From: Candidatus Levyibacteriota bacterium
Lineage (GTDB): Bacteria; Patescibacteriota; Microgenomatia; Levybacterales; UBA12049
NCBI GenBank assembly: GCA_027459745.1
Contig: DAIDHL010000002.1
Location: 9,113-73,112 of the forward strand
DNA: 64,000 nucleotides
Direction of reading: 5' to 3'
Below are positions 39,437 to 57,759 of this stretch, one piece after another; position 1 is the first letter of the stretch, and the number at the start of each line of letters is the position of its first letter. The translations under genes were made by a program, and so were the position numbers. The notes under the pieces were generated by a model. It ran no database searches and was not told the DNA's origin. It saw only the letters and a list, made by a program, of their open reading frames with translations.

Positions 39437-42430
39437 TCAAGCAGCCAGGTATCTTTGGGTAGACTTCACAATAGGATTAAACTCATTAATTACTTCTTTA
39501 GCCTTTCCTGGTCTTCTTAACTCTCTCATCAAATCTAGACTAAATAGATGCAATTCCGTGATACGTGCTTTGCGACGTAACCAACGTATATGTTCAGTAT
39601 TAAAGGCATTTCCTGAAGGTCTGTTGTTCTGCAAATTATCTGGATCTCTAAATTCCCCCTCTGGTATCGCTCGTAAAGCAGTAATTACAGAACGATAAAA
39701 TTTAGACCCATATCTATGATCAATTCCATATTTAATACGATGGTTAAAAACCTGCCCAGCCACAATATTGAGAAAGATACTCTTTACTAATTCCTTTCTT
39801 TCCTTCTGCACTTTTTTAACGTCGATTTCATGCTCACCAAACATATTATAGACAGGTACTTCCTTCATTTTTCCAGTCAACCTATCATATTTTTCTTCCA
39901 TTTTCCAAAAAGGTTTGACATCCAATACTTCTCGTCCAAACATTGCCACTGCTAAAGGAACCTCCACATAGTAGAAAAAAGTATCATATTCCACGTGCCC
40001 TTCTTCATTTTTTACTATATTTCCATCGGCATCACGCTTGGGATAGCTTATCTCTTGCTGCATCTTATACTTCTGGGTAAAATCAGTTTTACCCCACGTA
40101 CTGTACATATTGTAGATTTTCTTCAGAATGTCATTTTGTACCTGTTCACCAAATTCTTTTTCTTTCAAGGTGAACTGTTTATCTCTATCATCGAAATGAG
40201 TATAGTCATCCCATTTTATCTCTTTTCCAGAACTGACAATGTCAAACACAGCAGCGGCATTTTTCAAATGATCACGAATATACTGTGTTTGTTCATTACG
40301 ACCGAAACTAAGATTTTCTGTTTGTTTTTTATAGTCTCGCTGAGCTTTCTCCTCCATTTTTCTCTTATCCTCTTCAGTTAAATTTTTATTGTCCTTACTC
40401 TTTTTTAATTTCCTCGTTGTTACATCAGCCGCCTCACGCAGGTGAAAAAATTCTTCTGCGATACTCGTACCACCATCTGTCGAAGAGGCCCAGAAGAAAG
40501 GCGTTGCAGTTTCGTTGAAAACATTTAGTGTGGTAATTGCTCCGGAATAACGCATACGTCCTCGTAATTCTCGTAACCGATTGCGTAAGGTACGAAACAT
40601 TTTGGAGCCACTGAAATTTCTCGATTCCACATCTAACATAGCCACAATCCCGGTCGTATAGGCAAAATTTTCAGCCATTAAAAAAGCAAAGCTTAAGTTG
40701 TCAGAATCAACGATATTTTTCTTTTGACCATTTTCAACGACATCTACCGTCAAATCATATCTTTTAGCTACCATTTCATTGATAATGTTACGTACAGCGG
40801 TAAAGATAATGTTATTTTTCTGAGGCGTGTTATATAGATTTACTAGATCTATCATATAACGATCGGGATTTTTCTTTGCATTTTTCCATTGACCATCAGT
40901 CTTTTCTAAATTTGCCAAAACTTTTTGTGGATCCTGATGCCTGGAGTCTTTTCTGACTACATTTATCACTTCTTTTTCCAGTTCAGAAAAATTAAGCAGC
41001 CTGCATCCTTCAGGATAAAGTGCTTCAAGACTCTGCCTATCACCCAGTGACATAATTGTTTCTACCATCAACAAAAATGCATAACCCATCTTATTATCAG
41101 ATTTCCTACGCACGATTCCTGTCTCAGGATCTTTATCAACTGCTGTTGTATAATTTTGGGGAAGAGTAGCTAAAAACTGCATTAAGCTGGTATCCTCGTC
41201 ATAAAAAGGATCTGTCAAACGATTTTCTGCATAATGCTTAGCTAACAATTCTACATATTGAGCGGGATCTCCACCCCCATTTTGGCGTATATCTACACCG
41301 TAGGTACGTATCAAAGTAGCTGCAAATAACTCCTTGGCAATTGCATTTCCCAGGCGGAACAGGCGATCATCCTCCTTGCCATTAACTCTCTTTTTTCCAA
41401 ACAATTTACCTTGTTTGATAACAGTTTCCACATATAGATTAACCTGACGTGCCCCAACCTGGAAAGAAAGCTTGTCGGGGAAACTCACTTGCGCAGTATA
41501 TGGAGATTCACTTGCATAAAAGTTTATACGCTCACGTACAAAACGCATCACGTTCTCCTCATTCACAGTAACATCGACTTCTTTACTATTGCCCTTTTTT
41601 CTTCTCGGTCGTTTAGATCCATCTCTGGCTATTTCCCACGAATTGACAGTTACTAAAGGGAATGTACCTTCTATATTTTCGTCATTTAAACCTTTACCAT
41701 TAGACCCCTTAGTTCCATCCTTGGCTCCCCATTTATATACATCTACACCTGTAGATAAGTAGTAAAATAACTCCTCGGCACTATCAAATGATTGCATTTT
41801 TTCCTGAGCCTTTAATTGACCTTCTACAATATCTGACTCATTATGCTCTGCTAATGGTATAGTTCCCTGAGATTGATTTTGATCTTTTTGCTGTCTAGCC
41901 CTTCGTCGTTGGGTTAATTCATCCACAGGCTCTGAAGGAGTTGAGGTCTCATCTACTTCAGCTGCAGATCCACCTCGACTCGTTAACCGACGTAGCAAGC
42001 CTGCAAAAGCTGTCTTGGCTTTTTGCAACTTCTCAACATTCTTACGTCTTCCTGCCCGTTCTTCATCACTTAGTTTTTCCTCAACCTTGGCTAGTAGCGG
42101 TTCGATGTCTGAAATCTGTACTTTATCTCTGCTGAGTGCTTTGATACGAATTTTATCAGCCTTTTCTTGAAAATCAATTGGTACCAGATCGGAAAGATCA
42201 TCTACACCACCTATGCGAAAAAACTCGCTTAAATCAGAATAGCTGATATTTTCTTCTTCCCGCCGGCTACGACGTCTGCGTAAAGTATCAATATCTACTA
42301 CTTGTCCATTTTGATCATTATCATCCATAAGTTTTCTCTCATTTCCAGCATAACCTACTAGAGAAGAGGGTGTCAAACCGTTTATGATCTCACTTTGTTC
42401 TAAAATATACTTTTCTACCATACTAGCCAA
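39437..42430 (-). CDS. Large (997 aa) hydrophilic hypothetical protein
   Basis: No TM or recognisable catalytic motif. Highly charged. Confidence 0.5.
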   Translation of the reverse strand: MASMVEKYILEQSEIINGLTPSSLVGYAGNERKLMDDNDQNGQVVDIDTLRRRRSRREEENISYSDLSEFFRIGGVDDLSDLVPIDFQEKADKIRIKALSRDKVQISDIEPLLAKVEEKLSDEERAGRRKNVEKLQKAKTAFAGLLRRLTSRGGSAAEVDETSTPSEPVDELTQRRRARQQKDQNQSQGTIPLAEHNESDIVEGQLKAQEKMQSFDSAEELFYYLSTGVDVYKWGAKDGTKGSNGKGLNDENIEGTFPLVTVNSWEIARDGSKRPRRKKGNSKEVDVTVNEENVMRFVRERINFYASESPYTAQVSFPDKLSFQVGARQVNLYVETVIKQGKLFGKKRVNGKEDDRLFRLGNAIAKELFAATLIRTYGVDIRQNGGGDPAQYVELLAKHYAENRLTDPFYDEDTSLMQFLATLPQNYTTAVDKDPETGIVRRKSDNKMGYAFLLMVETIMSLGDRQSLEALYPEGCRLLNFSELEKEVINVVRKDSRHQDPQKVLANLEKTDGQWKNAKKNPDRYMIDLVNLYNTPQKNNIIFTAVRNIINEMVAKRYDLTVDVVENGQKKNIVDSDNLSFAFLMAENFAYTTGIVAMLDVESRNFSGSKMFRTLRNRLRELRGRMRYSGAITTLNVFNETATPFFWASSTDGGTSIAEEFFHLREAADVTTRKLKKSKDNKNLTEEDKRKMEEKAQRDYKKQTENLSFGRNEQTQYIRDHLKNAAAVFDIVSSGKEIKWDDYTHFDDRDKQFTLKEKEFGEQVQNDILKKIYNMYSTWGKTDFTQKYKMQQEISYPKRDADGNIVKNEEGHVEYDTFFYYVEVPLAVAMFGREVLDVKPFWKMEEKYDRLTGKMKEVPVYNMFGEHEIDVKKVQKERKELVKSIFLNIVAGQVFNHRIKYGIDHRYGSKFYRSVITALRAIPEGEFRDPDNLQNNRPSGNAFNTEHIRWLRRKARITELHLFSLDLMRELRRPGKAKEVINEFNPIVKSTQRYLAA

Positions 42431-42572: not shown

Positions 42573-43913
42573 TCAAGGAGTAAACTTAAAGCCCCTACCT
42601 TTCATGGTCATAATGTGAGTAGGCTGACTGGGATTATCTTCAATTTTTTTACGCAACCTGAGTATTAATTGATCCAAAGCTTGCTCTGTAACTCCTGATA
42701 TAGATTTGTTTTCTCCCCATACCACCTCAATAATTTTTTCTCTATCCACAATTTGTTCGGGATTTAACAAGAAGTATTTAAGTAATCGCAATTCGGATGC
42801 CGTTAAATCATCAGATAGAATTAAACTCCCCTTATGAATTATATTCTTATCAATATCCAATTCTATTTGATCTTTGCTGGCAATTAAAATATTAGAATTT
42901 TTACTTAAAAACTCACTAAAAAGCGGTATGGTTAATTTATTTTCTCTAACTAAGCCTATTTTCTCCAAGTACCGTTCAATATTTTGATTTTCCTCATTTC
43001 TATTTTTACCCAGTATCCACATTTGTTCCGATGGGCTAAAAACATTCCACAGTTCTTTCAACCCCCCTCTTATAGATGTCTGCTCAAGTAAAAAACTTAG
43101 CATTTGGGATTCTTTAAATTGCTCTTCCTTCACTAAATATGCTTCTGCCGCTAAACGGGTCAGCTTGCCATGCCCACTAGTTAAGCCAATAATTTCTTGG
43201 CGTACTTTGGAGGGGATGGTTTTCCCGGTAGCTCGTTCGATATAATCTAGGCGGAATTGTAATCCTGAAATATCTTTTAGATTTAAATATACTAGATGAC
43301 CAGCCAGAAACTCGTGGAAGTCGGAAAAAGTAACTGGCTCTATAAGCTCTTCCAGCGATTTGTTTAAGGAAAAAACTACGGAGAAACGATATTTAGCTCT
43401 ATTACGTAAAATACGCAGATTGGCAAAAAAAGCTGAAGTTAAATTAGGAATATAATCTTCAAAACGATCGAATAGGAACACAATTGTCATCTCTTCATCA
43501 ATAGCTAGATAATCAATTGCATGTTTTAAACCCTGAAAGAGTACCATTTCATCATTAAATGACAAACTTTCTTTGAATAGATTATTCACTTCCTCATAAA
43601 CATCCTCCATTTTACGCTGACGCAAAGATTCAAGTAGACTGAGAAACAAAAGTTTGGTAACTGAGAAAAGATTTTTTCCACGTAATTCAGAAAAATCAAC
43701 TAATACAAAATTAAACCATTTTTGGTTATCACCTAAATGACGTAGACGAACAAAGCGATTATACACTAATAAATGCAAGACTGTGCTCCTGCCTGCGCCT
43801 GGCAAACCTATAAGCTGACAGGAATTACCTTCTTTAATAAAAGAAAGGATTTTCTTGATTTCTTCAAATCTAGTTTCTTCCGGATAAAGCGATTCGAAGT
43901 GGGCAAGTTCCAT
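42573..43913 (-). CDS. Putative regulator: degenerate P-loop NTPase domain plus C-terminal OmpR/PhoB-type winged helix
   Basis: N-terminal 'IGLPGAGRST' (Walker-A-like with Arg in place of Lys) and 'IVFLFDRFEDY' (Walker-B-like). C-terminal 'LTASELRLLKYFLLNPEQIVDREKIIEVVWG...LRLRKKI...TMKGRGFKF' matches the Trans_reg_C wHTH. Confidence 0.6.
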   Translation of the reverse strand: MELAHFESLYPEETRFEEIKKILSFIKEGNSCQLIGLPGAGRSTVLHLLVYNRFVRLRHLGDNQKWFNFVLVDFSELRGKNLFSVTKLLFLSLLESLRQRKMEDVYEEVNNLFKESLSFNDEMVLFQGLKHAIDYLAIDEEMTIVFLFDRFEDYIPNLTSAFFANLRILRNRAKYRFSVVFSLNKSLEELIEPVTFSDFHEFLAGHLVYLNLKDISGLQFRLDYIERATGKTIPSKVRQEIIGLTSGHGKLTRLAAEAYLVKEEQFKESQMLSFLLEQTSIRGGLKELWNVFSPSEQMWILGKNRNEENQNIERYLEKIGLVRENKLTIPLFSEFLSKNSNILIASKDQIELDIDKNIIHKGSLILSDDLTASELRLLKYFLLNPEQIVDREKIIEVVWGENKSISGVTEQALDQLILRLRKKIEDNPSQPTHIMTMKGRGFKFTP

Positions 43914-44003
43914 ACTAAGATAAGTATATATGATCTCATAATTGGAAGCTAGTAGTTACATATGGACTTGCAATATTAAAAGCGTTTAGTCTACGATGAA
44001 TAT

Positions 44004-46478
44004 ATGAGAAAGTCCCTTTTAAATATTCCTTCTATACTTATTTTCTTTAGCTTGTTAGTTTTAATTCTTATATTGCAAATTCTGCCTATAAAAACCGCGC
44101 AGGCTGCAAGCGGCTCTTATGACTATATACCTGCAGGATGCCCTCAAGATCAATGGCATTATGATTCAAGTAAGAAAACCTGGACTAACGACAAAAGTAA
44201 TAATACAAATATGCCTGATACTTGTTATAGCTATGGATTACAGACACCAGATGAAGGCGGACAGATATGGCCACAAGATGGGAGCAAGCTACCAGATAAT
44301 ACAAGCCTGAATAGAGTAAATGGCACAGTCAATGCTAATGACAGGTATGTGAAAATTATAATTCACGGAAATTTTGTTTTAGGAGATCCCAAAAATGGTC
44401 AGTACGAAAGCTCTCTGAACGGTGCTTTCCATAACTTAAATAATGATTATTACTATTCCTTTGCTGTTGAAGATTCTAATGGAGGCATCCAACAAAATAT
44501 AATCTCCTTATTAAAATTCTGTGCTCCTAACTCTAACTCGGAAACTCTGGTAGATCTCTGTCTATATCACAATCATGGCGTTTCATATAGTGAAGATGGT
44601 ACCTATCCAGCTGATAATTCCTTTGGACAGCCAATATCAATTGACAAACAAATCCCAGATATCGGTACTGTAGTAAATCTAGTATCAAGTGCAGGCTATA
44701 AAACTAATGAACTTGTCTTTTACATACCAATTAAGAGCTCTAATTCCGATCTTACACTGAAAACTGTTCAATTTGCTGTTTGGCAAGGTAGTGACCCCTT
44801 AAAAAATATAGATGTATGGTGGAATAATATAATTGCACAAGGAAGTTTTGTAGTTGGAGCACAAGGTAGCGCAAGATTAGGTAGCCCAGGTATAGTTATA
44901 CAACCACGCGGAGGTGCGGCAACAGGTACTGAATATACTTATCAAACAGGTCAACCTATTACAGTTAATTTAACCAATGTAGATAATTCAGTAGGGTACA
45001 CACTTGGACTATACGATATTAGTGATCCCAATAATACTCAACATCTAGAAGACTTATGGAGTAATCAAAAATTAGACCAGAATATTAATATATCTAATAA
45101 TGATAGTACTCTTAGTAGTGGCGGTAAGAGCACGTATAACTCAACTAATCATACTGAAACATTTACTCTTACAGCAAATAACAATTTTACCCAAAACCCT
45201 GTAATGTTATGTCTCTTTCAACCAATAAATGGGAGTAGTGATGTGGGTTGTACTACCACTACAAATTTTAATAGTGCTAACGGCACATCTGGTGAAGGTT
45301 TTGCAACAAGCCATGGTTTTATTGTAACTACATTATCGCCCGATAAGGTCCAGTCTCCCACCCGAGCTGCCGGTGCGTCCGGAGATGTAAAATGGACTCC
45401 CCTGACTACTGCTGTTGGTATGTTCTTACCTTGCAACAATGACCCCAGTCTTTCTGCCGCAAATGCTCCTTCTGTTAAAAACCTCGGCACTAAAGGCGTT
45501 GACTCAAATCAATTTCTCTTTTCCGATGCCTGGAGTAATTTCCTTGCGGCAGCAAATTTCTTCTTTACCGGCCAATCGACCACACCACCTAACACAAATA
45601 GTAATCAACAGCTAGCTTATAACTCAACATCTTCACCTGAGTTTGCTTTGCAACCAGGCTCGGGAGTCAGTGGAAATGGAGGATTACAAGTCTATCCTAA
45701 TTCAGTTAAATATATGCAAGATTCATTGACTTTATATTTCACGACACCAACAAATGGAGTCAACGGAACATATAATATAAAAATAGAAAGAAATTCCGAT
45801 GCTGCATCAGTAGTAGACACCACAGTTAAGGCTTGTTCTAATCTAAAAGTTGGAGATACCTGCAGTATCCAAATACCAGTTAGTGATTTCCACAACATTG
45901 TAATTCCATACAATCAAAATGTTCCTTTTATAGTCAACATATTAGATAGTCAAATTGGTTTTGCTCAGTCTTTTCCAATTACAATGACCGGATATATTGC
46001 TTGTAATTACCCAGCAAGTACTTCTGACACACAAAATTTAAAATGTTATAACGGACAAACATGTGTAGATAATGTCTCCGGAAGTAGTCAAGGACATACC
46101 ACCGCAACATCAAGTTGTTCAAGCCCTGCTGCACCTAAATCCCCAGTAGGGACAAATCCTACAATCACTCCCACTATTGGTCCATTAGCTCCTTGTGTTG
46201 CTGTAGATACAGCTATGGGGAATATCAACACAGACCCAGTTGGGTTTATTCAGAGTTTATTTGGTATTTTGCTTAGCTTGAGTGGTGGAATAGCACTGTT
46301 GATTATCATCTACAATGGTTATCGTCTCATGATTTCCCGCGGCAACCCAGACGCCATCAAAAAAGCGCGTGAAGGTATTACCTCTGGTATCATAGGTATT
46401 ATCTTTGCTATCCTATCTATAGCCATATTACAAACCATTGGAGTCGATATTTTACATTTACCAGGATTTGGAAACTAA
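44004..46478 (+). CDS. Large secreted surface protein fused to a C-terminal VirB2/TrbC-like pilin module
   Basis: Signal peptide. About 720 aa S/T/N-rich extracellular region with Cys pairs. C-terminal '...LSLSGGIALLIIIYNGYRLMISRGNPDAIKKAREGITSGIIGIIFAILSIAIL' matches the two-helix pilin module of the three small pilin-like genes. Confidence 0.6.
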   Translation: MRKSLLNIPSILIFFSLLVLILILQILPIKTAQAASGSYDYIPAGCPQDQWHYDSSKKTWTNDKSNNTNMPDTCYSYGLQTPDEGGQIWPQDGSKLPDNTSLNRVNGTVNANDRYVKIIIHGNFVLGDPKNGQYESSLNGAFHNLNNDYYYSFAVEDSNGGIQQNIISLLKFCAPNSNSETLVDLCLYHNHGVSYSEDGTYPADNSFGQPISIDKQIPDIGTVVNLVSSAGYKTNELVFYIPIKSSNSDLTLKTVQFAVWQGSDPLKNIDVWWNNIIAQGSFVVGAQGSARLGSPGIVIQPRGGAATGTEYTYQTGQPITVNLTNVDNSVGYTLGLYDISDPNNTQHLEDLWSNQKLDQNINISNNDSTLSSGGKSTYNSTNHTETFTLTANNNFTQNPVMLCLFQPINGSSDVGCTTTTNFNSANGTSGEGFATSHGFIVTTLSPDKVQSPTRAAGASGDVKWTPLTTAVGMFLPCNNDPSLSAANAPSVKNLGTKGVDSNQFLFSDAWSNFLAAANFFFTGQSTTPPNTNSNQQLAYNSTSSPEFALQPGSGVSGNGGLQVYPNSVKYMQDSLTLYFTTPTNGVNGTYNIKIERNSDAASVVDTTVKACSNLKVGDTCSIQIPVSDFHNIVIPYNQNVPFIVNILDSQIGFAQSFPITMTGYIACNYPASTSDTQNLKCYNGQTCVDNVSGSSQGHTTATSSCSSPAAPKSPVGTNPTITPTIGPLAPCVAVDTAMGNINTDPVGFIQSLFGILLSLSGGIALLIIIYNGYRLMISRGNPDAIKKAREGITSGIIGIIFAILSIAILQTIGVDILHLPGFGN

Positions 46479-46481: not shown

Positions 46482-46847
46482 ATGTTAAAAGATACCTTGC
46501 TAGCCCTTACTATTCCCGGCCCCAATAGCGGCACTACTAATATTACCCTACCCAATGCTGTAAGTTGCGGCAGCAATGGCTGTTTTAACACCATCATGCA
46601 AGGTATTGTTCAATGGCTGTTTGTCTTTGCAATTATACTTTGCCTAGCTTATTTAATCTGGGGAGGTATAGATTGGACCATGTCCTATGGGGATAAAACT
46701 AAAATACAGAAAGCTCGATTAAAACTTGTGTATGCCATCATAGGTTTATTTATTGTTTTCTTGTCATTCTTCATTATCAACCTAAGTGGTAAATTATTGG
46801 GGCTACCTCTCACCAATGTCAGCACACAAATAAATACTGCCCCATAA
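46482..46847 (+). CDS. VirB2/TrbC-like T4SS pilin-module protein
   Basis: Hydrophobic helix - 'LIWGGIDWTMSYGDKTKIQKARLKLVYAIIGLFIVFLSF' - second helix. Start is 4 nt after the preceding stop. Confidence 0.55.
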   Translation: MLKDTLLALTIPGPNSGTTNITLPNAVSCGSNGCFNTIMQGIVQWLFVFAIILCLAYLIWGGIDWTMSYGDKTKIQKARLKLVYAIIGLFIVFLSFFIINLSGKLLGLPLTNVSTQINTAP

Positions 46848-46868
46848 TTTCCTATATAATATGCCTGT

Positions 46869-48098
46869 ATGAGCAAATCATTATTTTACTGGTTAAGCGG
46901 GTCTATCTTGTTTATTTTGGCTGTAATTGCAATTATCGGACCCCGTACTCTCTTTGTCGATGTCAGTGAATATCACTGTTATGCGAGTTTATTTTGGACA
47001 GGGCATCTACAAAACAACCACCTCGAACAACAATACTGCAGACTTGACATCACCCACCTTCAACTGCACAAATACTCATTACCCCAAGAATATCCTTTCT
47101 TGAGTTTGGTGATTTTCTCGCTTCCTTTGCTTTCACCATTGGGTTACAGTCTTAGTTTTAGATTGCTGATGTTATTCTTTTTATTAACCATTTGGTGGTA
47201 TTTTTACAAAACCAAACAGTTTACTTCCGGTATAATTTTACTGCTATTTATTACGCTTGGTTTGAGCTCTGTGGCATTCAATCGTTATGACTTAGTTGCT
47301 TCGAGTCTAACATTTTTTGCCTTAATCCTGGCGAGTAAGAAAAAGTTTTGGTTAAGCTACATATTACTAGCATTGTCTACTTTCCTGAAAATTTATCCTT
47401 TATTTTTTATCCCTTTGGTTTTCATTTTGGAATGGCATAGCTTTAAGTCAAGCAGATTGCAATTAAAAAAATATTATCCTCTCTTATCAGGTCTTGTCGT
47501 TTTAACTATCCTTTTTCTGATATCTTTCAACATTAACGGTCCTCAAACTCTATCACCGTTAGCTTATCAGGTAGTACGGCCATTACAAATCGAGTCCACT
47601 CCTGCTTCAATATTCTTGTTATTTAGCGCAGGTAAAGTCTGTCTTAATCAATCTTTTGGCTCAATAAACCTAATGTCAGTTACTAACGGCCAGTGTCTGC
47701 CTAATTTGCTTAGCAAAAATCTAGAATTTTTTTTTAGTGGGTTAATGTTTATAAGTATCATCACTGTTTATATATCATGGTTTAAACGAAAAGTTATTTT
47801 TTGGCAAGCATGTATTCTACTACTCATAAGCTTAATTGTATTCAACAAAGTCTTAAGCCCACAATACTTTCTCTGGCTCGTACCATTCTTGGCCTTAAAC
47901 CGCAAAGGTTTTTCGTTAAACATATTTGTCTGGCTATTATTGCTTGGTTTGAGTTATATAATTTATCCTGTACTTTATTCTAGTCCACAGTTCCCACTTA
48001 GTTATATATTCTCTGTAATATTAATACGGAATATTTTATTATTTTCTCTCTATGTGTATACTTGGAAAGAAGCGGTTAGCACGCATAATAGTAAATAG
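46869..48098 (+). CDS. Polytopic membrane protein, possible GT-C / O-antigen-ligase-like glycosyltransferase
   Basis: 10-12 predicted TM helices with no soluble domain. Embedded between pilin genes. Confidence 0.4.
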   Translation: MSKSLFYWLSGSILFILAVIAIIGPRTLFVDVSEYHCYASLFWTGHLQNNHLEQQYCRLDITHLQLHKYSLPQEYPFLSLVIFSLPLLSPLGYSLSFRLLMLFFLLTIWWYFYKTKQFTSGIILLLFITLGLSSVAFNRYDLVASSLTFFALILASKKKFWLSYILLALSTFLKIYPLFFIPLVFILEWHSFKSSRLQLKKYYPLLSGLVVLTILFLISFNINGPQTLSPLAYQVVRPLQIESTPASIFLLFSAGKVCLNQSFGSINLMSVTNGQCLPNLLSKNLEFFFSGLMFISIITVYISWFKRKVIFWQACILLLISLIVFNKVLSPQYFLWLVPFLALNRKGFSLNIFVWLLLLGLSYIIYPVLYSSPQFPLSYIFSVILIRNILLFSLYVYTWKEAVSTHNSK

Positions 48099-48146
48099 AT
48101 AAATAAAATATAATTTACACTTAAATCTTATTCATAATTAGACTCT

Positions 48147-49670
48147 ATGCCAATTATTTTATTCTTTAAAAAGCATTTATATTTTTTATTACTTTTCATT
48201 TTTTTTCTTTTATATACCTGCGAAGGAATTTATCTGCTCGATCCTGATTTTGGTTGGCATTTGCGTTTTGGTGAGATAGTACTACAGGCTCACCGCATAC
48301 CATTCAAAGATATTTTTTCCTATACGATGCCTACTTATAATTTTATCAATCATGAGTGGCTTTCTGATGTCATTATTGCCTCGATTTACTCTTTAGCTGG
48401 CTTAGTCGGAGTAGCTATCCTTTTTGCTTTATTTGTCACAGCTGGTTTGGTATTTGCAGTTAAAATTGCCCGTGCTAAAGATCAACTGGGATTTTGGTTG
48501 TCACTGTTAACTATGTTGGCCATAACCACGGTGCAGTTTGCCGGTATTCGCCCCCAGGCCTTGAGCTGGACTTTTTTTATCGTCGTCTGGTATTTGCTTG
48601 ATGTAGTAAAAAACAGATCGCGTTTTATAATCTTGCCCTTAATCTTTCTATTCTGGGCTAATATGCACGCTGCTTTTGCCCTGGGACTATTTCTCTTTTT
48701 TGTCAGTGTCGTCAATGCATTAATTAAGCGTGATAAAGATAGCTGGTACTTTTTTCTATCGTTTCTGGTTGCTACAGGAGTTACTTTAATAAATCCCTAC
48801 GGAATTAAATTATGGCAGGAAGTTATTCTGACTTCCGCATCACCACAAATTTCCCAGGTAGAAGAGTGGACGCCTAGTTTTACGCACATAATATTCCCCA
48901 TGTGGCTATTTGTTGATTTTTCTTTAATCTTACTTTGGTTTAATCGTGCAGATATATCAAAAAAAAACATTTTCTTAATGGCAGTACTAGGTATACTTTT
49001 TGTTACCGGTATTCGCCAAGCTCCCCTATTCATGCTGTTTTTGTTACCTCTTACTATTGAAGCGGTAAAAACATTTATCGATCAGGCAAGAAAGTACCAG
49101 TTTGCTCTTAAGCGCTTGCGAATAGCTTCGGTGGTGATAGCCATCATTACTGTTATTTTTTGCATAGTTAGCCTATGGCCTTTGGAGTCCAGTATTTGGC
49201 AAAGTCGCTTAAACATCTCAAGAAGCATCAGCTTAATATATCCTTCTGGAGCTGTGGCATATCTCCGATCCCATCCTTTTTTAGGAAATTACTACTCTAT
49301 TTATAACTGGGGAGGTTACTTAATTTGGCAATTACCAAACAAAAAGGACTTCATCGACGGACGAATGCCTACCTGGATTAATCCTAATGCACCAAAAAAT
49401 GAGAGTCAGAATGCGTTAAAAGATTTTCTTAAAATTAATAATCCTTCTTCTCTGAATGCAATAATACATAAATATGATATAACCACCTTAATAATATCTC
49501 CTTTAAAATTAACTCCTCCTTCATGTTGGTTATTACAAAAGTGGTGCAACCAAGTTGTTGCACAAAAAAATAAACAAAATCTGCCCTTAATCCATTATCT
49601 GCGGGTCAATGGCTGGCATCAAGTGACCCATGATAAGGTTTCAATAGTTTTTCAGAAAAAGGACATATAG
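48147..49670 (+). CDS. Polytopic membrane protein, GT-C-like glycosyltransferase candidate
   Basis: Over 10 TM helices. First loop 'DPDFGWHLRFGE' resembles acidic loop motifs of GT-C enzymes. C-terminal soluble domain. Confidence 0.4.
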   Translation: MPIILFFKKHLYFLLLFIFFLLYTCEGIYLLDPDFGWHLRFGEIVLQAHRIPFKDIFSYTMPTYNFINHEWLSDVIIASIYSLAGLVGVAILFALFVTAGLVFAVKIARAKDQLGFWLSLLTMLAITTVQFAGIRPQALSWTFFIVVWYLLDVVKNRSRFIILPLIFLFWANMHAAFALGLFLFFVSVVNALIKRDKDSWYFFLSFLVATGVTLINPYGIKLWQEVILTSASPQISQVEEWTPSFTHIIFPMWLFVDFSLILLWFNRADISKKNIFLMAVLGILFVTGIRQAPLFMLFLLPLTIEAVKTFIDQARKYQFALKRLRIASVVIAIITVIFCIVSLWPLESSIWQSRLNISRSISLIYPSGAVAYLRSHPFLGNYYSIYNWGGYLIWQLPNKKDFIDGRMPTWINPNAPKNESQNALKDFLKINNPSSLNAIIHKYDITTLIISPLKLTPPSCWLLQKWCNQVVAQKNKQNLPLIHYLRVNGWHQVTHDKVSIVFQKKDI

Positions 49671-49725
49671 TCATAGATTTACCCCTTGACAAGTAAGTAT
49701 AATTTTAACTAGAGTATAAATAGAT

Positions 49726-50151
49726 ATGAAATTTGATTTAAGAAAACCGTTTATTTTCGCATCTACCACTGCCGTTATGGGCGCAGCTGCTACATTACCA
49801 GCTTTTGCAGGTAATAGTAATTATGTTGGAATCTGTCCAACAGGATCATTTGCAGGAGTATGTAATCCGAATATAAGCACTCTATTGGGCAGTGTTATCA
49901 ATGTAGTCTTCGTTATAGCTATTCTTATTGCCTTGTTCTTCCTTATCTATGGTGGTATTCGTTGGATCATTTCTCAGGGTAATAAAGAAAAGGTCAATGG
50001 AGCTCGAGATATGTTAATAGCTGCTTTGATTGGATTAATTGTCGTCTTCTTATCATATTTTTTGCTTGGTTTGGTTATACAATTATTATTCGGACAATCG
50101 ACACAGAATTTGATTAATTCAGTAACTTCTAATGGTATTTTTAATCATTAA
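49726..50151 (+). CDS. VirB2/TrbC-like T4SS pilin-module protein
   Basis: Signal peptide (cleavage near AFA-GNS). '...LIYGGIRWIISQGNKEKVNGARDMLIAALIGLIVVFLSYF' two-helix module. Confidence 0.6.
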   Translation: MKFDLRKPFIFASTTAVMGAAATLPAFAGNSNYVGICPTGSFAGVCNPNISTLLGSVINVVFVIAILIALFFLIYGGIRWIISQGNKEKVNGARDMLIAALIGLIVVFLSYFLLGLVIQLLFGQSTQNLINSVTSNGIFNH

Positions 50152-50300
50152 TCTCTAGAAATTTATCCAAATTTCAACAGATAAACGCCAATTTTGTTTA
50201 TATGTCCCTAACTCTAATTGGTTTGTAAATAAAATCTTGTGTTTTCCCTCAAATAAACCCTTCAATTGCATTTGTAGACAAAATCAGCTAGATTATTGCT

Positions 50301-50654
50301 ATGGATTGGAATAATTGTTTGCAAAATATCACCAATAATGGCAATACGGTCGGACAAGCGGCTACATTAGGCTGTATTCCGGTACTTTTTTCTAACTTAG
50401 TAAACTCTGCCTTTATTTTTGCGGGTAGTATTGCTGTTATCTTTATCATCTGGTCAGGCATCCAATATATTATGTCCGGTGGAGACCCAAAAAAGGCCGA
50501 GACAGCACGTAAAACCATGACTTGGGCTATCATCGGGCTTTTACTTATTATCTTCTCTGTGGCGATTATAACCATCCTGGGATATATTACAGGAGCTCAT
50601 TGCATAACTTCTTTCGGTTTTACCAACTGTCAGACAAATATCACAGGTAATTAA
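50301..50654 (+). CDS. VirB2/TrbC-like T4SS pilin-module protein
   Basis: 'IIWSGIQYIMSGGDPKKAETARKTMTWAIIGLLLIIFSVAI' module. Confidence 0.55.
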   Translation: MDWNNCLQNITNNGNTVGQAATLGCIPVLFSNLVNSAFIFAGSIAVIFIIWSGIQYIMSGGDPKKAETARKTMTWAIIGLLLIIFSVAIITILGYITGAHCITSFGFTNCQTNITGN

Positions 50655-50691
50655 AAACTCAACGTTCTTGGTAGAAAACCATCATTAGATC

Positions 50692-51063
50692 TTAATTCTG
50701 GTTGGTGGAGTCAGCTTTTTCATTCTGCAGTACTTCTTCTAACTTCTGCCGGGTTTCTTTCAACTCCTCCTGATCCAAATCCGCGGGTTTCAATTGTTGC
50801 ATTTCTGCTTCTGTCTTATTTTTTATTCTGATGTAGAAATCTTGATCAATCTTCTCGCCGTTTTCGCTTTCGTCGTCCAAAGCTTTTTGGATATTTCTGT
50901 CCAGTCTCAACTTGTACAAAGCATAATAAGCATCCCAAATCAATTCATCCAACTCTGATTTTTTATCCGAAGATATGATATCAATTTGTTCAAGTAATAG
51001 CTTCTTGAAATCCTCCGCTATGGGTAATAGTCTAATTAGGTTTTTAGTTGAGAAATCTTTCAT
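50692..51063 (-). CDS. Acidic coiled-coil hypothetical protein
   Basis: 123 aa, E/D/K-rich. Downstream of the 981-aa gene on the same strand. Confidence 0.35.
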   Translation of the reverse strand: MKDFSTKNLIRLLPIAEDFKKLLLEQIDIISSDKKSELDELIWDAYYALYKLRLDRNIQKALDDESENGEKIDQDFYIRIKNKTEAEMQQLKPADLDQEELKETRQKLEEVLQNEKADSTNQN

Positions 51064-51069
51064 TATTTT

Positions 51070-54015
51070 CTATAAAGGATCTGCCAATTCTCTAATCTCT
51101 TTAATAATACTAGCACTCGCTTGGGCAAAATCATATGAAGAAATTACGTGGTTGTTTAACGCAGTGTAAACTTCAGTTAAAGTAGCGGTTAAATTAGGCG
51201 GAGTTCTGAAACCTCTAGGATGAGATAAAACAAAGTTATCTAACAAGTCGCAAAGCACATCAGGTGTTAAAGTTCTTGAAAGTAATCTAAAGCTTTCATT
51301 GGTATTTTCTCCTCGATATTGAAATAGCATATTCATAACTTCCAAGTAACCATAGGTATAAGCGGGATTGGCTTTTTCACTCGCCGATAATCTGGGATCA
51401 TCAGCATTTATAACCCCATTATTATCAAAATACTTTTCAGGGTGGATTTCTGAATCCTGACAAGCAATTCTCGCTTTTTCGAATTTACCTCCCAGGTTAA
51501 GAGATAACTTAAGAACATCTAATTCATCTTTACTAATTTGAGGCTCTTCAGACATATTAGCGGCTAATTCCTTTACCTCATTAACTTCATCCTGCACCAA
51601 CTCTCGTCTATTCCTCAGCCGAGCTTGATGCCGAGATCTAGCTTCATCTATAGCAAGAGCCAACCTTGGATCAGGCCCAGGAGCCGGCCATCGACCCTCT
51701 GCGACCATCATATCGTTTAATTCTGTCGCATCACGGGTTCTCAACATACGCTGACTTACTCCGAATCCCGTTAGATCTCGCAAAGCATCTTCGCGTGCTG
51801 TTCTGACAGCAGCTGGTCTTGTTGCTTCTTCTCTTCTGGCCTTGGCTTCGTTCATTAAATTTATTACCAGCAAACGGTGAGCAGCTGTATTGTTATCACC
51901 CTGAGACCACCCCACATTGGGATCCAAATTATGAGCCTCATTTATTCTCGCCAAAATCTGATTAACATTTTCCGATGCTAAGTGAGCCAAGTCTAACTGC
52001 ACTGCCGGATTTGCGGCTACTGCCCAACCTGTTATTTCCGTAAATTGTCTGCCCATATTATTCATCTGTCTGTCCCCATTCACATTAGCTCCGACTTTAT
52101 GCATTTCTCTCTCTTTTTCCTCGATTTCCAATTGAATTTGCTGAATATCAGTTATTTCTTTAGCTCGGTCTTTAGCTAATTGATTAATTTCAGCTAATCT
52201 ATCATTTAGCAACCCTTTATACATATCAATTATGCTCTTCGTTGTTTCGGCCCGAGCAGTAATAACTGAATCTGGTGTCCCAAGAGGAGGAGCAACATCC
52301 AATCCCAAATTATGTAAGGTAGTATCCCTTCTGGTATCATTATCTGTCCGAGCAGCTGCACGTTCAGCATCAAGAGCAGCCGGCTGATTTAAGGCCTCTC
52401 TCGTGGCAATAGCGGCAGCAATACCAGCTCTGCCTCCAGCTACCATATATGGATGAGCTGATAATTTTCTTATTGCTGCATCGACAGCGGCTTGAGCTTT
52501 ATCATATTCATCAAACTGTTTCTCTTCATCAGCTAAAATCCCTCCTTCTTTCATTAAATCCTCTTTTTGTGTTTGCAATTTTTTCTTTTCCGCCTCATAC
52601 ACCTTACCGCCTGCTTCTCTATCAGCTATTTTTTGCTTAATAACATCATCTCGTGAAATCTCTTCCTTATTTAAGACATCTATTGCCATCTCCGTTAAAT
52701 CATCCACCATACTTCGTTCTCTAGCTTGCTCCCATCGTTCTTTATTAACTATAAGATCTCCAGCATCTCCTCCTAAACGGTTAAACCAAGTCAAAACCTC
52801 TTCATCCATTTTTGTAGAAAGTTGTTGAATGGACGTTTCTGATCTACCAAAAAGTCCACCTCTTCTACGTCTAGTGTAAGCAGTTCCTCCTTGCAAATAT
52901 TGTTCTGGTAAGGCTGCAATATCTTTCGGTGGAATCCCTAATTTTTGTAAGGTTTGGAAGCGGGTCAATAAATATTCTACCGTTTGATTTTTTAGATTCT
53001 CAGGACTTACTACACTTTCGGCATCTCTGCCTCGTACACGTCTTAACGTTCCCCCTGCTATTCCAAAGTCATCCATGTCCAACCCAGTCATTTGTTTTAT
53101 AAACTGTCTTTCTATGGCCTTATGTTGCTGAACATCTACTGGATCCGTATCACGGTGCGCAAGACTTTCAAATCCGTTCACACAACTTTCCAAACTGATA
53201 GTCAAACCTTTTTTGCGTAAAGAATTAATAGCAGCTCCTAATCCAACCACACCGACACCGGCCGCACCACCCGCCGCGGCCGACCATGGAAAAGCAAGTG
53301 GCAAAACTTTACTTCCAATTAGAGCTCCGATGCCTCCTCCTGCACCCGTGATACCTGCTCTACCAATAACTTTGCCAATAGAACCAAGATTTGGCTCTAT
53401 TTTGTCATGCCAAACTTTATTTAGGACACCTTGATCAACCCCTAAATGAATGTTTTCATTTTGAACCACCTCGTTGCGCCTGAGTTCAGGATTACTTACA
53501 ACTTGCATACCCAAGGCAAAAAGCCTACGGGCAATATCCTGTTCCATTAACTTCATAGTTAATTTCCAACCTTTAGGATCCTTTAAAAACTCTCTTATCT
53601 TATTTTGGTCCGGCTTATACCCTATAATTTGATTGCTATTGCTGCTATCAATAATTGGAGAGCCTAATAGCTCAAATAGCTTTCTATCCGTGGTATGATA
53701 ATCACTGCGAAGCAGATCGTAATAGGTTCTGCCAGAACCTCTAGTTGGATCGAGTGAATTGGGAATTTCTGTCTTAGCTAAATCACTTAGTCTGGTAAGG
53801 TAATTTTCTAAAAAGGCGGCATGCTCATTAGTTAACTCCGTGCCAAAGTCCACTTCTCTACTACCTTTTATTGAAGGATTTATAAGGAATTCTGTTAATT
53901 GAAATGTCTGACCGCTTTTTACTTCACCTTTTGATTCCGCAGAACTATTTTTTTTCTCACCCTTTTTGGCTTCTTTCCCTTCTTCTCCTGTGTGAACTTC
54001 AGCTAAATCCGGCAT
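51070..54015 (-). CDS. Large (981 aa) hypothetical protein with one Gly/Ala-rich hydrophobic segment and long coiled-coil/Ala-rich region
   Basis: Segment 'GRAGITGAGGGIGALIGSKVLPLAFPWSAAAGGAAGVGVVGLGAAI' is membrane-like. The remainder is charged and helical. Confidence 0.5.
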   Translation of the reverse strand: MPDLAEVHTGEEGKEAKKGEKKNSSAESKGEVKSGQTFQLTEFLINPSIKGSREVDFGTELTNEHAAFLENYLTRLSDLAKTEIPNSLDPTRGSGRTYYDLLRSDYHTTDRKLFELLGSPIIDSSNSNQIIGYKPDQNKIREFLKDPKGWKLTMKLMEQDIARRLFALGMQVVSNPELRRNEVVQNENIHLGVDQGVLNKVWHDKIEPNLGSIGKVIGRAGITGAGGGIGALIGSKVLPLAFPWSAAAGGAAGVGVVGLGAAINSLRKKGLTISLESCVNGFESLAHRDTDPVDVQQHKAIERQFIKQMTGLDMDDFGIAGGTLRRVRGRDAESVVSPENLKNQTVEYLLTRFQTLQKLGIPPKDIAALPEQYLQGGTAYTRRRRGGLFGRSETSIQQLSTKMDEEVLTWFNRLGGDAGDLIVNKERWEQARERSMVDDLTEMAIDVLNKEEISRDDVIKQKIADREAGGKVYEAEKKKLQTQKEDLMKEGGILADEEKQFDEYDKAQAAVDAAIRKLSAHPYMVAGGRAGIAAAIATREALNQPAALDAERAAARTDNDTRRDTTLHNLGLDVAPPLGTPDSVITARAETTKSIIDMYKGLLNDRLAEINQLAKDRAKEITDIQQIQLEIEEKEREMHKVGANVNGDRQMNNMGRQFTEITGWAVAANPAVQLDLAHLASENVNQILARINEAHNLDPNVGWSQGDNNTAAHRLLVINLMNEAKARREEATRPAAVRTAREDALRDLTGFGVSQRMLRTRDATELNDMMVAEGRWPAPGPDPRLALAIDEARSRHQARLRNRRELVQDEVNEVKELAANMSEEPQISKDELDVLKLSLNLGGKFEKARIACQDSEIHPEKYFDNNGVINADDPRLSASEKANPAYTYGYLEVMNMLFQYRGENTNESFRLLSRTLTPDVLCDLLDNFVLSHPRGFRTPPNLTATLTEVYTALNNHVISSYDFAQASASIIKEIRELADPL

Positions 54016-54070
54016 ACACTTAATTATTACTTGATTATCTTCTAATAATCAAGTAAGCTTTAGCTATAAT

Positions 54071-55405: not shown

Positions 55406-55509
55406 AACTTTTCACAAAATCGGCACCACTTAGGCCTATATTTGACCCACTTTGATAATCTTGAACACAGATTTTTCACGTTATACACTTTTTGTAGGAG
55501 TGAGATACT

Positions 55510-57051: not shown

Positions 57052-57056
57052 AAACC

Positions 57057-57707
57057 ATGGCTGCCCAAAAAATTCATTCATCAACACAAAAATTTACCGA
57101 AATTGTCGATATAGTCGATAACATTGTGGTACTGGAGGGCGGCTATGCTTGTGTGGTTATTGAACTCACAGCTACTAATTTTGCCTTATTGTCTCGACAG
57201 GAACAGGATGCCAAGATCTATGCCTATGCGGGTTTACTTAACTCGTTAAATTTCCCTATACAAATTTTAGTACGTAACAAAAGGGTAGATATTACTTCTT
57301 ATATTAATCAACTTGAAGATGCAGAAAAACGCACAACCAACAATCAGTTAAAAGATCAAATCGAGCAATACAAGAGTTTTGTTAATGAAATGGTGACAGT
57401 AAACGTAGTCTTAAATAAGCAGTTTTACATCGTTATTTCATACTCGTCACTTGAAGGCGGTATTGGAGCTATTGCACCAGGTAAAGGCAGTCAGAAAGAT
57501 GCTTTTGTAGCTGCGGCCAGCAAAACCTTATTAACTAAAGCGGAATCTATTCATGGTCAGCTTAATCAGCTGGCGAGCACGGCAAAACTTCTGGAACGAG
57601 AAGAATTAATTAAATTATTTTATGATATTTATAACAACGATATTGTGGAACCAAACCAAATAGTTACAGATATTACAACGCCGATAATTCAGTCGGCAAG
57701 TAAGTAG
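57057..57707 (+). CDS. Hypothetical protein immediately upstream of virB4
   Basis: 216 aa with no TM helix. Confidence 0.4.
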   Translation: MAAQKIHSSTQKFTEIVDIVDNIVVLEGGYACVVIELTATNFALLSRQEQDAKIYAYAGLLNSLNFPIQILVRNKRVDITSYINQLEDAEKRTTNNQLKDQIEQYKSFVNEMVTVNVVLNKQFYIVISYSSLEGGIGAIAPGKGSQKDAFVAAASKTLLTKAESIHGQLNQLASTAKLLEREELIKLFYDIYNNDIVEPNQIVTDITTPIIQSASK

Positions 57708-57759
57708 TAGTAAGGTTATTTACTTTTACCCAACTAGGGAAGTCTGAATTAATTTAAAT

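What the first reader, a model, noticed from the sequence alone, without database searches (positions are those of the whole stretch)
42573..43913. Unusual regulator with degenerate P-loop NTPase domain and C-terminal OmpR-type winged helix, transcribed divergently from the adhesin-pilin gene
The N-terminal domain has a Walker-A-like GLPGAGRST in which the invariant Lys is Arg, and a Walker-B-like hhhhDRFED. The C-terminus is an unmistakable OmpR/PhoB DNA-binding domain (VVWG...LRLRKKI...KGRGFKF). ATPase-then-wHTH order is the reverse of SARP/AfsR-type STAND regulators. The gene is transcribed divergently from the adhesin-pilin gene and sits inside the T4SS-like locus. It is a candidate locus-specific, possibly ATP-independent, switch.
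Basis: seen in the sequence. Interest (0 to 1): 0.6.

Follow-up and report, generated by a model that had tools for sequence, protein, structure and literature searches.

The report
Pilus-locus regulator with disabled ATPase domain
This gene encodes a DNA-binding regulator, found in ultra-small Levybacteria (candidate phyla radiation), that joins an Orc/Cdc6-like ATPase-type domain with altered catalytic residues to an OmpR-type DNA-binding domain; it almost always sits beside the type IV secretion pilin genes, making it the first candidate switch for that poorly understood machinery.

Summary
The ORF at 42573-43913 (-) encodes 446 aa with GLPGAGRST (residues 36-44), VFLFDRFED (145-153) and a C-terminal Trans_reg_C domain (E 2e-19). 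Confident AlphaFold models (pLDDT 90-94) show an AAA+ core, a helical lid and a winged-helix-like domain. The closest folds are P. abyssi PABY2304, Orc1/Cdc6, ORC4, RFC, MuB and DnaA. This module is followed by an OmpR/PhoB winged helix.

The protein belongs to a large unnamed Patescibacteria family, mainly Levybacteria, with members 45-70% identical over the full length. In 70 of 80 species-level loci it lies within 3 kb of T4SS pilin genes. It is co-directional and just upstream of them in 52 loci and divergent, as here, in 18. The orientation flipped at least 6 times while adjacency was kept.

The Walker-A position is Arg in 70/80 species, Lys in 8 and Gln in 2. The catalytic-Glu position is always Arg or Lys. 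Distant paralogues keep GKS with DE, so the degeneracy is derived and fixed.

Most likely this is a one-component transcription factor for the pilin/T4SS locus whose pocket binds a ligand but does not hydrolyse it. No operator was found. Ligand binding and the regulatory targets are untested. I found no published description. Verdict: a new variant of a known kind, of moderate interest.

The parts
42573..43913 (-). Regulator gene (446 aa plus stop codon)
   Evidence: ORF list. 100% identical protein P0001 in the public collection, with more than 1000 homologues.
43284..43913 (-). AAA+-type alpha/beta core (about residues 1-210), with a three-helix insertion between strands at 67-73 and 143-149
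   Evidence: AF2 secondary structure. Foldseek matches to PABY2304, Orc1/Cdc6, ORC4, RFC, MuB and DnaA. Weak Pfam hits to AAA_22, AAA_16, AAA_35 and ORC-CDC6-like.
43782..43808 (-). Walker-A-like loop GLPGAGRST (residues 36-44); Arg42 replaces the canonical Lys
   Evidence: P38, G39 and R42 are invariant in 33 sequences. Position 42 is R in 70, K in 8 and Q in 2 of 80 species.
43455..43481 (-). Walker-B-like strand VFLFDRFED (residues 145-153); Arg150 sits at the catalytic-Glu position
   Evidence: R150 is invariant in 33 sequences. Position 150 is R or K in 80 of 80 species and never Glu. Distant paralogues have DE or DQ.
43128..43283 (-). Helical lid domain (about residues 211-262) with the conserved motif T-x-G-H-G-K-L-T-R (245-253)
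   Evidence: AF2 helices 215-229, 235-245 and 249-261. T245, G247, H248 and G249 are nearly invariant. Paralogues have GGHPGLL at this site.
42879..43127 (-). Winged-helix-like linker domain (about residues 263-345)
   Evidence: AF2 shows helices 268-276, 279-290, 294-300 and 307-318, a short hairpin and helix 330-343. Foldseek alignments to PABY2304 and Orc1/Cdc6 span it. The winged-helix assignment is inferred from secondary structure.
42576..42878 (-). OmpR/PhoB-type winged helix-turn-helix DNA-binding domain (residues 346-446)
   Evidence: Pfam Trans_reg_C E 2.2e-19. PDB sequence hits to YycF, RegX3, PhoB and OmpR. Foldseek TM 0.77-0.82.
43914..44003 (.). 90-bp divergent intergenic region. 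It holds the pilin promoter: TTGCAA (43968-43973), an 18-nt spacer, TACGAT (43992-43997), then 6 nt before the ATG at 44004. The regulator's own promoter must also lie here.
   Evidence: Sequence. The same promoter type sits before the first pilin gene in 36 of 80 loci under a strict pattern, against 3 matches expected by chance. No operator-like repeats were found.
44004..46478 (+). Putative target: 824-aa secreted protein with a C-terminal T4SS_pilin domain (adhesin-pilin fusion), the first gene of the pilin array
   Evidence: Pfam PF18895 at residues 746-810. A pilin-fusion gene is the immediate neighbour of the regulator in most related loci.
39437..42430 (-). 997-aa protein with no Pfam match, directly downstream of the regulator on the same strand. 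A counterpart of 830-1640 aa flanks the regulator in related loci.
   Evidence: Its function is unknown, and co-transcription with the regulator in this window is possible (142-bp gap).
46482..59889 (+). Rest of the T4SS-like locus: pilins (46482-46847, 49726-50151), PrgI/VirB3-like (55510-57051), TraC/TrsD-like (57057-57707) and VirB4 (57760-59889)
   Evidence: Pfam. The same gene order occurs in related loci.

Best explanation
The gene encodes a one-component transcription factor specific to Levybacteria and related Microgenomatia (Patescibacteria). Its N-terminal 345 residues form an Orc/Cdc6-like AAA+ module made of a core, a lid and a winged-helix-like domain. Its last 100 residues form an OmpR/PhoB-type winged helix that binds DNA. 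The AAA+ pocket has lost the residues needed for hydrolysis: the Walker-A Lys is Arg, and the Walker-B catalytic Glu is Arg or Lys. It keeps a conserved glycine-rich loop and a positive charge.

The module most likely works as a non-hydrolysing ligand-binding or oligomerisation switch. It would set how many OmpR-type domains are presented to DNA, in the way the receiver domain does in response regulators and the NTPase module does in MalT. The targets are most likely the adjacent T4SS pilin array (starting at 44004) and the regulator's own promoter.

Shown: the domain identities, the fixed degeneracy of the motifs and the conserved adjacency to the pilin locus. Inferred: DNA binding at this locus, ligand binding without hydrolysis, and the direction of regulation.
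For: Domain identities: Trans_reg_C at E 2e-19. Full-length AF2 model pLDDT 90.2 and N-domain model pLDDT 93.9. Foldseek places the N-module with PABY2304 (TM 0.58), Orc1/Cdc6, ORC4, RFC, MuB and DnaA, and the C-domain with YycF, VicR, KdpE and PhoB DNA-binding domains.

Locus link: in 80 species-representative genomes the gene lies within 3 kb of T4SS pilin genes in 70. Seven of the remaining 10 lack enough flanking sequence and 3 show no pilin nearby. Orthologues at only 36-40% identity keep the same synteny. More distant paralogues do not. The orientation relative to the pilins changed at least 6 times on a neighbour-joining tree while adjacency persisted, as expected for a regulator kept next to its target.

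Pocket: position 42 is R in 70, K in 8 and Q in 2 of 80 species. Position 150 is R or K in 80 of 80 and never Glu. P38, G39 and G41 and the lid motif are nearly invariant. Paralogues with GKS plus DE show that the ancestor was a canonical ATPase.

The pilin gene has its own conserved promoter directly next to the regulator gene in both arrangements.
Against: No operator was identified. There are no direct repeats of OmpR-box type in the 90-bp divergent region or elsewhere in the window. The divergent intergenic regions of related species share no common motif. The 11-bp-spaced TTAYAA/TTACAA hexamers in the regulator promoters of co-directional loci also occur before unrelated genes, so they may be ordinary promoter elements.

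The pilin promoter looks like a reasonable sigma-70 promoter and may not need an activator. By sequence the N-domain is below every Pfam AAA gathering threshold and has no significant PDB sequence match, so the NTPase assignment rests on predicted structure. The cultured Saccharibacterium Southlakia runs an essential T4SS without this regulator. There is no expression or binding data.
Confidence: 0.55

Rival explanations
1. It is a transcription factor, but the N-terminal module is a pure pseudo-ATPase scaffold. It binds no ligand and only provides constitutive oligomerisation, so regulation, if any, comes from the protein's abundance or from a partner protein such as the adjacent 997-aa protein.
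For: Both catalytic residues are replaced. Two species have Gln at position 42. A paralogous subfamily has lost the basic residue altogether, with GMKRVGIS. The large neighbouring protein always accompanies the gene.
Against: P38, G39, G41, a positive residue at 42 (78 of 80) and the lid motif are under strong purifying selection. This is hard to explain if the pocket is empty. Lys and Arg interchange at position 42, which preserves the charge.
Confidence: 0.2
2. It is a general or differently targeted regulator. It might control the 997-aa neighbour, the 746-aa membrane protein or distant genes, and its position next to the pilins is inherited gene order rather than a functional link.
For: No operator was found at the pilin promoter. 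In the window the gene is co-directional with the 997-aa gene and could be co-transcribed with it. In co-directional loci it is divergent from that same neighbour.
Against: Adjacency to the pilin array survives at least 6 inversions of the gene and divergence down to 36% identity. Paralogues outside T4SS loci form separate, more distant subfamilies.
Confidence: 0.15
3. It is not a transcription factor but a DNA-handling protein related to Orc/Cdc6, MuB, TnsC or IstB. It would mark or load DNA for the T4SS, as a substitute for the missing relaxase and coupling proteins, or act at the nearby replication origin.
For: The closest folds are replication initiators and the transposition target selectors MuB and TnsC. 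Patescibacterial T4SS loci lack a relaxase and often lie near dnaA (PMC12102498). dnaN and dnaA lie within 10 kb in L001.
Against: The catalytic residues that such motors need are missing. The DNA-binding domain is the OmpR/PhoB type typical of transcription factors. There is no dnaA or dnaN in this 64-kb window. The conserved neighbour is the pilin gene, not dnaA.
Confidence: 0.07
4. It is a STAND-like sensor of an anti-phage or conflict system carried on a mobile element.
For: Weak hits to nSTAND1, nSTAND3 and AAA_16 in some members and a weak PADLOC hit to mad8 (E 3e-4, 18 bits). CED-4 appears among lower-ranked fold matches.
Against: There is no sensor repeat domain and no effector domain. 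The gene is single-copy in the window with stable chromosomal synteny in about 70 species. No significant PADLOC match was found.
Confidence: 0.02

Closest known systems
Orc1/Cdc6 initiators and the archaeal Walker-type ATPase PABY2304 (PDB 2qen)
   Same: They have the same order of modules: AAA+ core, helical lid, then a winged-helix domain. They are the best structural matches (2qen TM 0.58; Orc1/Cdc6 probability 1.0). There is a helical insertion between the second and third core strands, as in initiator-clade AAA+ proteins (inferred).
   Different: The Walker A Lys and the Walker B Glu are replaced. An extra OmpR/PhoB-type DNA-binding domain is appended. Sequence similarity is not significant. 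The genomic role is tied to a secretion locus, not to an origin.
MalT / LAL-type regulators (N-terminal NTPase module, C-terminal HTH)
   Same: The logic is the same: an N-terminal NTPase-fold oligomerisation switch drives a C-terminal DNA-binding domain in a single polypeptide (from general knowledge of the family). Some members give weak AAA_16 hits.
   Different: The DNA-binding domain is OmpR/PhoB-type, not LuxR/GerE. There is no sensor repeat domain and the protein is half the size. MalT has canonical Walker motifs and binds ATP.
SARP/AfsR-type large regulators
   Same: They combine an OmpR-type DNA-binding domain with a P-loop NTPase module.
   Different: The domain order is reversed, with the DNA-binding domain at the N-terminus. 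BTAD and TPR domains are present there and absent here. The NTPase there is of NB-ARC/AAA_16 type with canonical motifs. They occur in Actinobacteria next to biosynthetic clusters.
OmpR/PhoB-family response regulators
   Same: The C-terminal DNA-binding domain is the same by profile and by fold.
   Different: There is no receiver domain and no phospho-acceptor Asp. The input module is AAA+-like instead. No cognate histidine kinase is seen in the locus.
Patescibacteria T4SS loci as described by Quinonero-Coronel et al. 2025 (PMC12102498) and Wang et al. 2023 (PMC10633639)
   Same: The locus content is the same: VirB2-like pilin arrays, PrgI/VirB3, TrsD, VirB4, no relaxase.
   Different: Neither paper mentions a regulator. 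The Southlakia locus has none, and that genome has only two classical PF00486 response regulators.

Membership tests
OmpR/PhoB winged-helix DNA-binding domain (Pfam PF00486 Trans_reg_C) | Profile match above the curated threshold | tested here: met
   69.7 bits against a cutoff of 26.2, E 2.2e-19, residues 369-444. All 33 sampled family members match.
OmpR/PhoB winged-helix DNA-binding domain (Pfam PF00486 Trans_reg_C) | Fold: N-terminal beta-sheet, three helices, C-terminal hairpin wing | tested here: met
   The AF2 model has strands 350-353 and 358-361, helices 372-383, 391-399 and 410-424, and strands 434-437 and 441-444. Foldseek TM 0.77-0.82 to YycF, VicR, KdpE and WalR domains.
OmpR/PhoB winged-helix DNA-binding domain (Pfam PF00486 Trans_reg_C) | Binding to direct-repeat DNA sites near regulated promoters | tested here: inconclusive
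   No repeats found in the window's intergenic regions. 11-bp-spaced hexamers occur in the regulator promoters of 16-17 related loci, but they are not specific to them.
Two-component response regulators (OmpR subfamily) | N-terminal receiver domain (PF00072) with a phospho-acceptor Asp | tested here: not met
   No Response_reg match. NCBIfam response-regulator models align only to residues 343-446 and score far below their cutoffs. The N-terminus has an AAA+ fold.
AAA+ / P-loop NTPases (initiator and clamp-loader-like) | Alpha/beta core followed by a helical lid | tested here: met
   Met at the level of predicted structure: pLDDT 93.9, with Foldseek probability 1.0 to PABY2304, Orc1/Cdc6, ORC4, RFC, MuB, DnaA domain III and RuvB.
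AAA+ / P-loop NTPases (initiator and clamp-loader-like) | Walker A GxxxxGK[ST] | tested here: not met
   The sequence is G36-L-P-G-A-G-R42-S43. Position 42 is Arg in 70, Lys in 8 and Gln in 2 of 80 species.
AAA+ / P-loop NTPases (initiator and clamp-loader-like) | Walker B hhhhDE with a catalytic Glu | tested here: not met
   The sequence is VFLF-D149-R150. Position 150 is Arg or Lys in 80 of 80 species and never Glu.
AAA+ / P-loop NTPases (initiator and clamp-loader-like) | Sequence-profile membership in a curated AAA family | tested here: not met
   AAA_22 scores 20.4 bits against a cutoff of 27. AAA_16 is best at E 9e-6 in 7 of 33 members. ORC-CDC6-like matches 2 of 33. The N-domain profile has no significant PDB hit.
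AAA+ / P-loop NTPases (initiator and clamp-loader-like) | Nucleotide binding and hydrolysis | not testable with these tools
   This needs biochemistry. Conservation of the loop suggests binding, and loss of the catalytic residues suggests no hydrolysis (inference).
STAND NTPases, including SARP/AfsR and MalT-like regulators | NTPase module followed by a C-terminal repeat sensor domain (TPR, WD40, LRR or similar) | tested here: not met
   The protein ends in the wHTH at residue 446. No repeat domains appear in Pfam or in the model.
STAND NTPases, including SARP/AfsR and MalT-like regulators | For SARPs: N-terminal OmpR-type domain plus a BTAD domain | tested here: not met
   The OmpR-type domain is C-terminal and there is no BTAD hit.
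Orc1/Cdc6 proteins | C-terminal Cdc6-type winged helix and an origin-proximal role | tested here: inconclusive
   A winged-helix-like domain at residues 263-345 is aligned by Foldseek, but there is no Cdc6_C profile hit. No dnaA or dnaN lies in the window.

The most novel reading that the evidence does not exclude
The family is the master switch of the Patescibacterial T4SS pilus in Levybacteria. Its AAA+ pocket, rebuilt with two basic residues, no longer burns ATP. Instead it senses a phosphate-bearing metabolite, for example the nucleotide supply obtained from the host cell, and in response it polymerises its OmpR-type domains on DNA to turn the pilin array on or off. It would thereby couple host attachment or exploitation to the nutritional state of an organism that cannot make its own nucleotides.
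Probability: 0.15. Interest if true: 0.75.

Novelty: new variant of a known kind. Interest (0 to 1): 0.52.

Why it matters
The T4SS-like machinery with its pilin arrays is widespread in Patescibacteria. It is essential in the one genetically tractable species, yet its function and control are unknown (PMC10633639, PMC11665869, PMC12102498).

A conserved regulator beside the pilin genes in a whole order of these uncultured bacteria gives a concrete, testable entry point. Its binding sites would define the regulon, and its ligand, if any, would say what signal triggers pilus production.

[quoted passage not shown] Finally, it is a natural example of an AAA+ module evolving from an ATPase (paralogues with GKS and DE) into a non-catalytic form with two fixed basic substitutions.

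Tried and rejected
1. Operator search. I looked for OmpR-box-like direct repeats in the window (TTAYAA-N5-TTACAA with up to 1 mismatch: 0 hits). I ran a general direct and inverted repeat search of 42400-44100. I compared by eye the divergent intergenic regions of 11 related loci. Nothing was shared, and each lineage has its own short inverted repeats.

2. Regulator-promoter motif. The conserved CTTGATA...TTAYAA-N5-TTACAAT element was considered as an autoregulatory operator. I set it aside as unproven because the same element precedes unrelated genes in L064 and L079, and precedes inserted IVP genes in L009 and L052. It is also absent from the window.

3. Sequence-level assignment of the N-domain. 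The family profile against PDB gave only a local P-loop match to an ABC transporter (E 0.015). Pfam hits are all below threshold.

4. Defence-system membership. PADLOC gave only an 18-bit hit.

5. Origin-binding idea. There is no dnaA or dnaN in the window.

6. Experimental data from a cultured relative. Southlakia lacks the family.

8. Co-variation between positions 42 and 150 was checked and not found.
Full report
The minus-strand ORF 42573-43913 encodes 446 aa. Residues 36-44 read GLPGAGRST and residues 145-153 read VFLFDRFED. The C-terminal 100 residues contain VVWG...LRLRKKIED...KGRGFKF. Pfam places Trans_reg_C at residues 369-444 (E 2.2e-19, 69.7 bits against a cutoff of 26.2). NCBIfam response-regulator models align only to this C-terminal part and score far below their cutoffs. 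PDB sequence searches return only OmpR, PhoB, YycF and RegX3 DNA-binding domains, plus a faint local P-loop match. The gene on the opposite strand starting at 44004 encodes an 824-aa protein with a C-terminal T4SS_pilin domain. Two small pilins, a PrgI-family protein, a TraC/TrsD-like protein and VirB4 follow.

**2. What the protein is.** An alignment-based AlphaFold model is confident for the full length (pLDDT 90.2, pTM 0.87) and for residues 1-345 alone (pLDDT 93.9, pTM 0.91). Foldseek against the PDB gives the following ranking for both models: the Walker-type ATPase PABY2304 of Pyrococcus abyssi (2qen; TM 0.58 for the N-module), archaeal Orc1/Cdc6, eukaryotic ORC4 and ORC1, RFC, MuB, DnaA domain III and RuvB, with CED-4 lower down. 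The C-terminal domain superposes on YycF, VicR, KdpE and WalR effector domains at TM 0.77-0.82.

The secondary structure shows five core strands (32-35, 67-73, 143-149, 177-183, 207-209). The P-loop follows the first strand and the Walker-B-like motif ends the third. Three helices are inserted between the second and third strands, which I read as reminiscent of the initiator-clade insertion. A helical lid covers 215-261, and a small winged-helix-like domain covers 268-343.

The refutation criterion 'does not fold as a P-loop NTPase' is therefore not met, though the assignment rests on predicted structure. By sequence the N-domain stays below every Pfam AAA threshold. AAA_22 scores 20.4 bits. 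Among 33 members, AAA_16 matches 7, AAA_35 matches 3, nSTAND1 matches 3 and ORC-CDC6-like matches 2. A family profile finds no significant PDB relative.

**3. The family.** The protein has more than 1000 homologues. [quoted passage not shown] In species-representative genomes the matches are mostly Candidatus Levy(i)bacteriota, and the closest (70%) is a Levyibacteriota MAG.

A profile of the N-module alone, searched against 1.84 billion cluster representatives, finds 1110 proteins at E <= 1e-3. About 30 clusters form the close family. Several hundred more distant proteins are also about 420-480 aa, and an alignment shows they share the whole architecture, including the OmpR-type domain.

**4. 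The Walker motifs in evolutionary context.** The census across the superfamily is:

| Group | Walker-A position 42 | Positions 149-150 |
|---|---|---|
| 33 close homologues | R42, P38 and G39 invariant | R150 invariant; D149 nearly so |
| 80 species-level orthologues | R 70, K 8, Q 2 | position 150 always basic (R or K), never Glu |
| Distant paralogues, majority | canonical GxxGxGKS | hhhhDE or DQ |
| Distant paralogues, Roizmanbacteria type | GMKRVGIS | the Asp is lost as well |

The degenerate pocket is therefore a derived state, fixed in the T4SS-linked clade, in a family whose ancestor looked like a working ATPase. Three features argue that the pocket is still used to bind something anionic even though hydrolysis is very unlikely: the loop glycines are kept, Lys and Arg interchange at position 42, and the lid motif T-x-G-H-G-K-L-T-R is conserved (GGHPGLL in paralogues). 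This is inference and no tool here can test binding. No co-variation between positions 42 and 150 was seen.

**5. Genomic context.** I scanned the 80 species-level loci with an iterated pilin-domain HMM and with the window's own T4SS proteins.
- 70 loci have pilin genes within 3 kb of the regulator.
- 52 of those are co-directional, and in 48 of these the first pilin gene starts less than 600 bp after the regulator's stop codon.
- 18 are divergent, as in the window.
- Of the other 10, 7 lack enough flanking sequence and 3 show no pilin nearby.

The usual gene order is a roughly 550-750-aa membrane protein, a large 830-1640-aa protein on the opposite strand, the regulator, a pilin fusion, three small pilins, PrgI, TrsD and VirB4. 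Only the regulator gene is flipped between the two arrangements. On a neighbour-joining tree of the regulators the arrangement changes at least 6 times (a rough tree without support values).

Orthologues at 36-40% identity, one with Lys and one with Arg at position 42, keep the synteny. Paralogues at about 25% identity lie elsewhere. Persistent adjacency through repeated inversions and deep divergence is the main argument that the regulator acts on this locus.

**6. Promoters and the search for an operator.** The first pilin gene carries a conserved promoter, TTGCA[AT]-N17/18-TA[CGT][GT]AT, only about 6 nt before its start codon. This suggests leaderless or nearly leaderless mRNA. A strict pattern finds it before pilin genes in 36 of 80 loci (39 of its 46 matches, against 3 expected by chance) and in the window at 43968-44003. 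In co-directional loci this promoter begins within a few bases of the regulator's stop codon, so any upstream activator site would lie inside the regulator's coding sequence.

The regulator's own promoter in co-directional loci is CTTGATA...TTAYAA-N5-TTACAAT, with hexamers 11 bp apart. Exact matches occur in 16-17 loci against 0-1 expected. The same element also precedes unrelated genes and is absent from the window, so I do not claim it as an operator. The window's 90-bp divergent region contains no convincing repeats, and the divergent regions of related species share no motif.

**7. Mechanism.** The best-supported reading is a one-component transcription factor. In it, an Orc/Cdc6-like AAA+ module that can no longer hydrolyse nucleotide controls the oligomeric state, and through that the DNA binding of OmpR-type domains at the pilin/T4SS locus and probably at its own promoter. 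The rivals are:
- the same factor with an empty, purely structural pseudo-ATPase module;
- a regulator of other genes whose location is historical;
- a DNA-handling protein for the T4SS or the replication origin, suggested by the fold relatives but disfavoured by the missing catalytic residues, the OmpR-type domain and the absence of dnaA/dnaN from the window;
- a defence-type STAND sensor, which has no support.

**8. Comparison with what is known.** It works like MalT/LAL regulators and, in its domain logic, like response regulators with the receiver domain swapped for an AAA+ module. Structurally it is closest to Orc1/Cdc6 and PABY2304. It is not a response regulator, because it has no receiver domain. 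It is not a SARP, because the domain order is reversed and BTAD and TPR domains are absent. It is not a canonical AAA+ ATPase, because the Walker A Lys and Walker B Glu tests fail.

The two main papers on the Patescibacterial T4SS do not mention any regulator. The Southlakia T4SS locus has none, and that genome has only two classical OmpR-type response regulators. Further literature searches found only SARP-type combinations of these domains. The library searched is incomplete, so 'not described' means not found there.

**9. Verdict.** This is a real and well-conserved feature. It is a new variant of a known kind of regulator. Its value lies mainly in being the first candidate regulator of an important but obscure secretion system in uncultured bacteria, and in being a natural case of an ATPase module turned into a non-catalytic one. 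Interest is moderate (0.52). The missing pieces are the ligand, the binding site and the direction of regulation.

Noticed in passing
window 43968-44006; also 29391-29431: Sigma-70-like promoters sit with the -10 box only about 6 nt before the start codon (TTGCAA-N18-TACGAT-N6-ATG before the pilin-fusion gene; TTGACA-N17-TACGAT before an fn3-domain ORF). This suggests leaderless or near-leaderless mRNAs. The pilin version recurs in 36 of 80 related loci.
   Followed up: partly
L001 9599-9970 and 15315-15692; L006 9580-9960, 12790-13146 and 15247-15636; upstream regions in L009, L015, L018, L021: Small genes of about 125 aa from the 23S_rRNA_IVP / bAvd-like family (PF05635) are inserted at several intergenic positions of the T4SS loci in related species. 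They are often flanked by short tandem repeats of 7-11 nt (for example CTAGTNG repeated about five times just before the regulator). They look like small mobile insertions.
   Followed up: no
window 39437-42430 (-): This 997-aa, highly charged protein has no Pfam or PADLOC match. A counterpart of 830-1640 aa flanks the regulator in related loci, always antiparallel to the pilins. It evolves fast: only 14 of 80 counterparts were recognisable by phmmer at 1e-5.
   Followed up: partly
window 37191-39431 (+): This 746-aa protein, conserved on the far side of the regulator in 73 loci, matched my iterated pilin-domain HMM at residues 150-231 (E 2e-21). Pfam gave no hit and the HMM had absorbed its relatives, so the match is circular and unverified.
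   Followed up: partly
window 46869-49670 (+): A weak GT87-like glycosyltransferase (409 aa) and a 507-aa protein of unknown function are inserted inside the pilin array. The same pair occurs in the closest relative (L004/L007), and the 507-aa protein occurs in a few other loci.
   Followed up: no
window 27347-34518: This is a cluster of eight tRNA genes, including a tRNA-Ser called with the unusual anticodon ACT (29141-29226) and two tRNA-Met about 170 bp apart on opposite strands. They lie around a tyrosine recombinase/integrase gene (28088-28948).
   Followed up: no
P0190, P0203, P0277 and similar; locus L087: A paralogous subfamily with the same architecture has a P-loop reading GMKRVGIS (no basic residue at the Lys position) and has lost the Walker-B Asp. 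It is found in Roizmanbacteria-type genomes and is not next to T4SS genes.
   Followed up: partly
record titles of L009, L010, L016 and many others: Many of the MAGs that carry this Patescibacteria-specific locus are titled 'uncultured Gammaproteobacteria bacterium' in the public records, which looks like a bulk mislabel.
   Followed up: no
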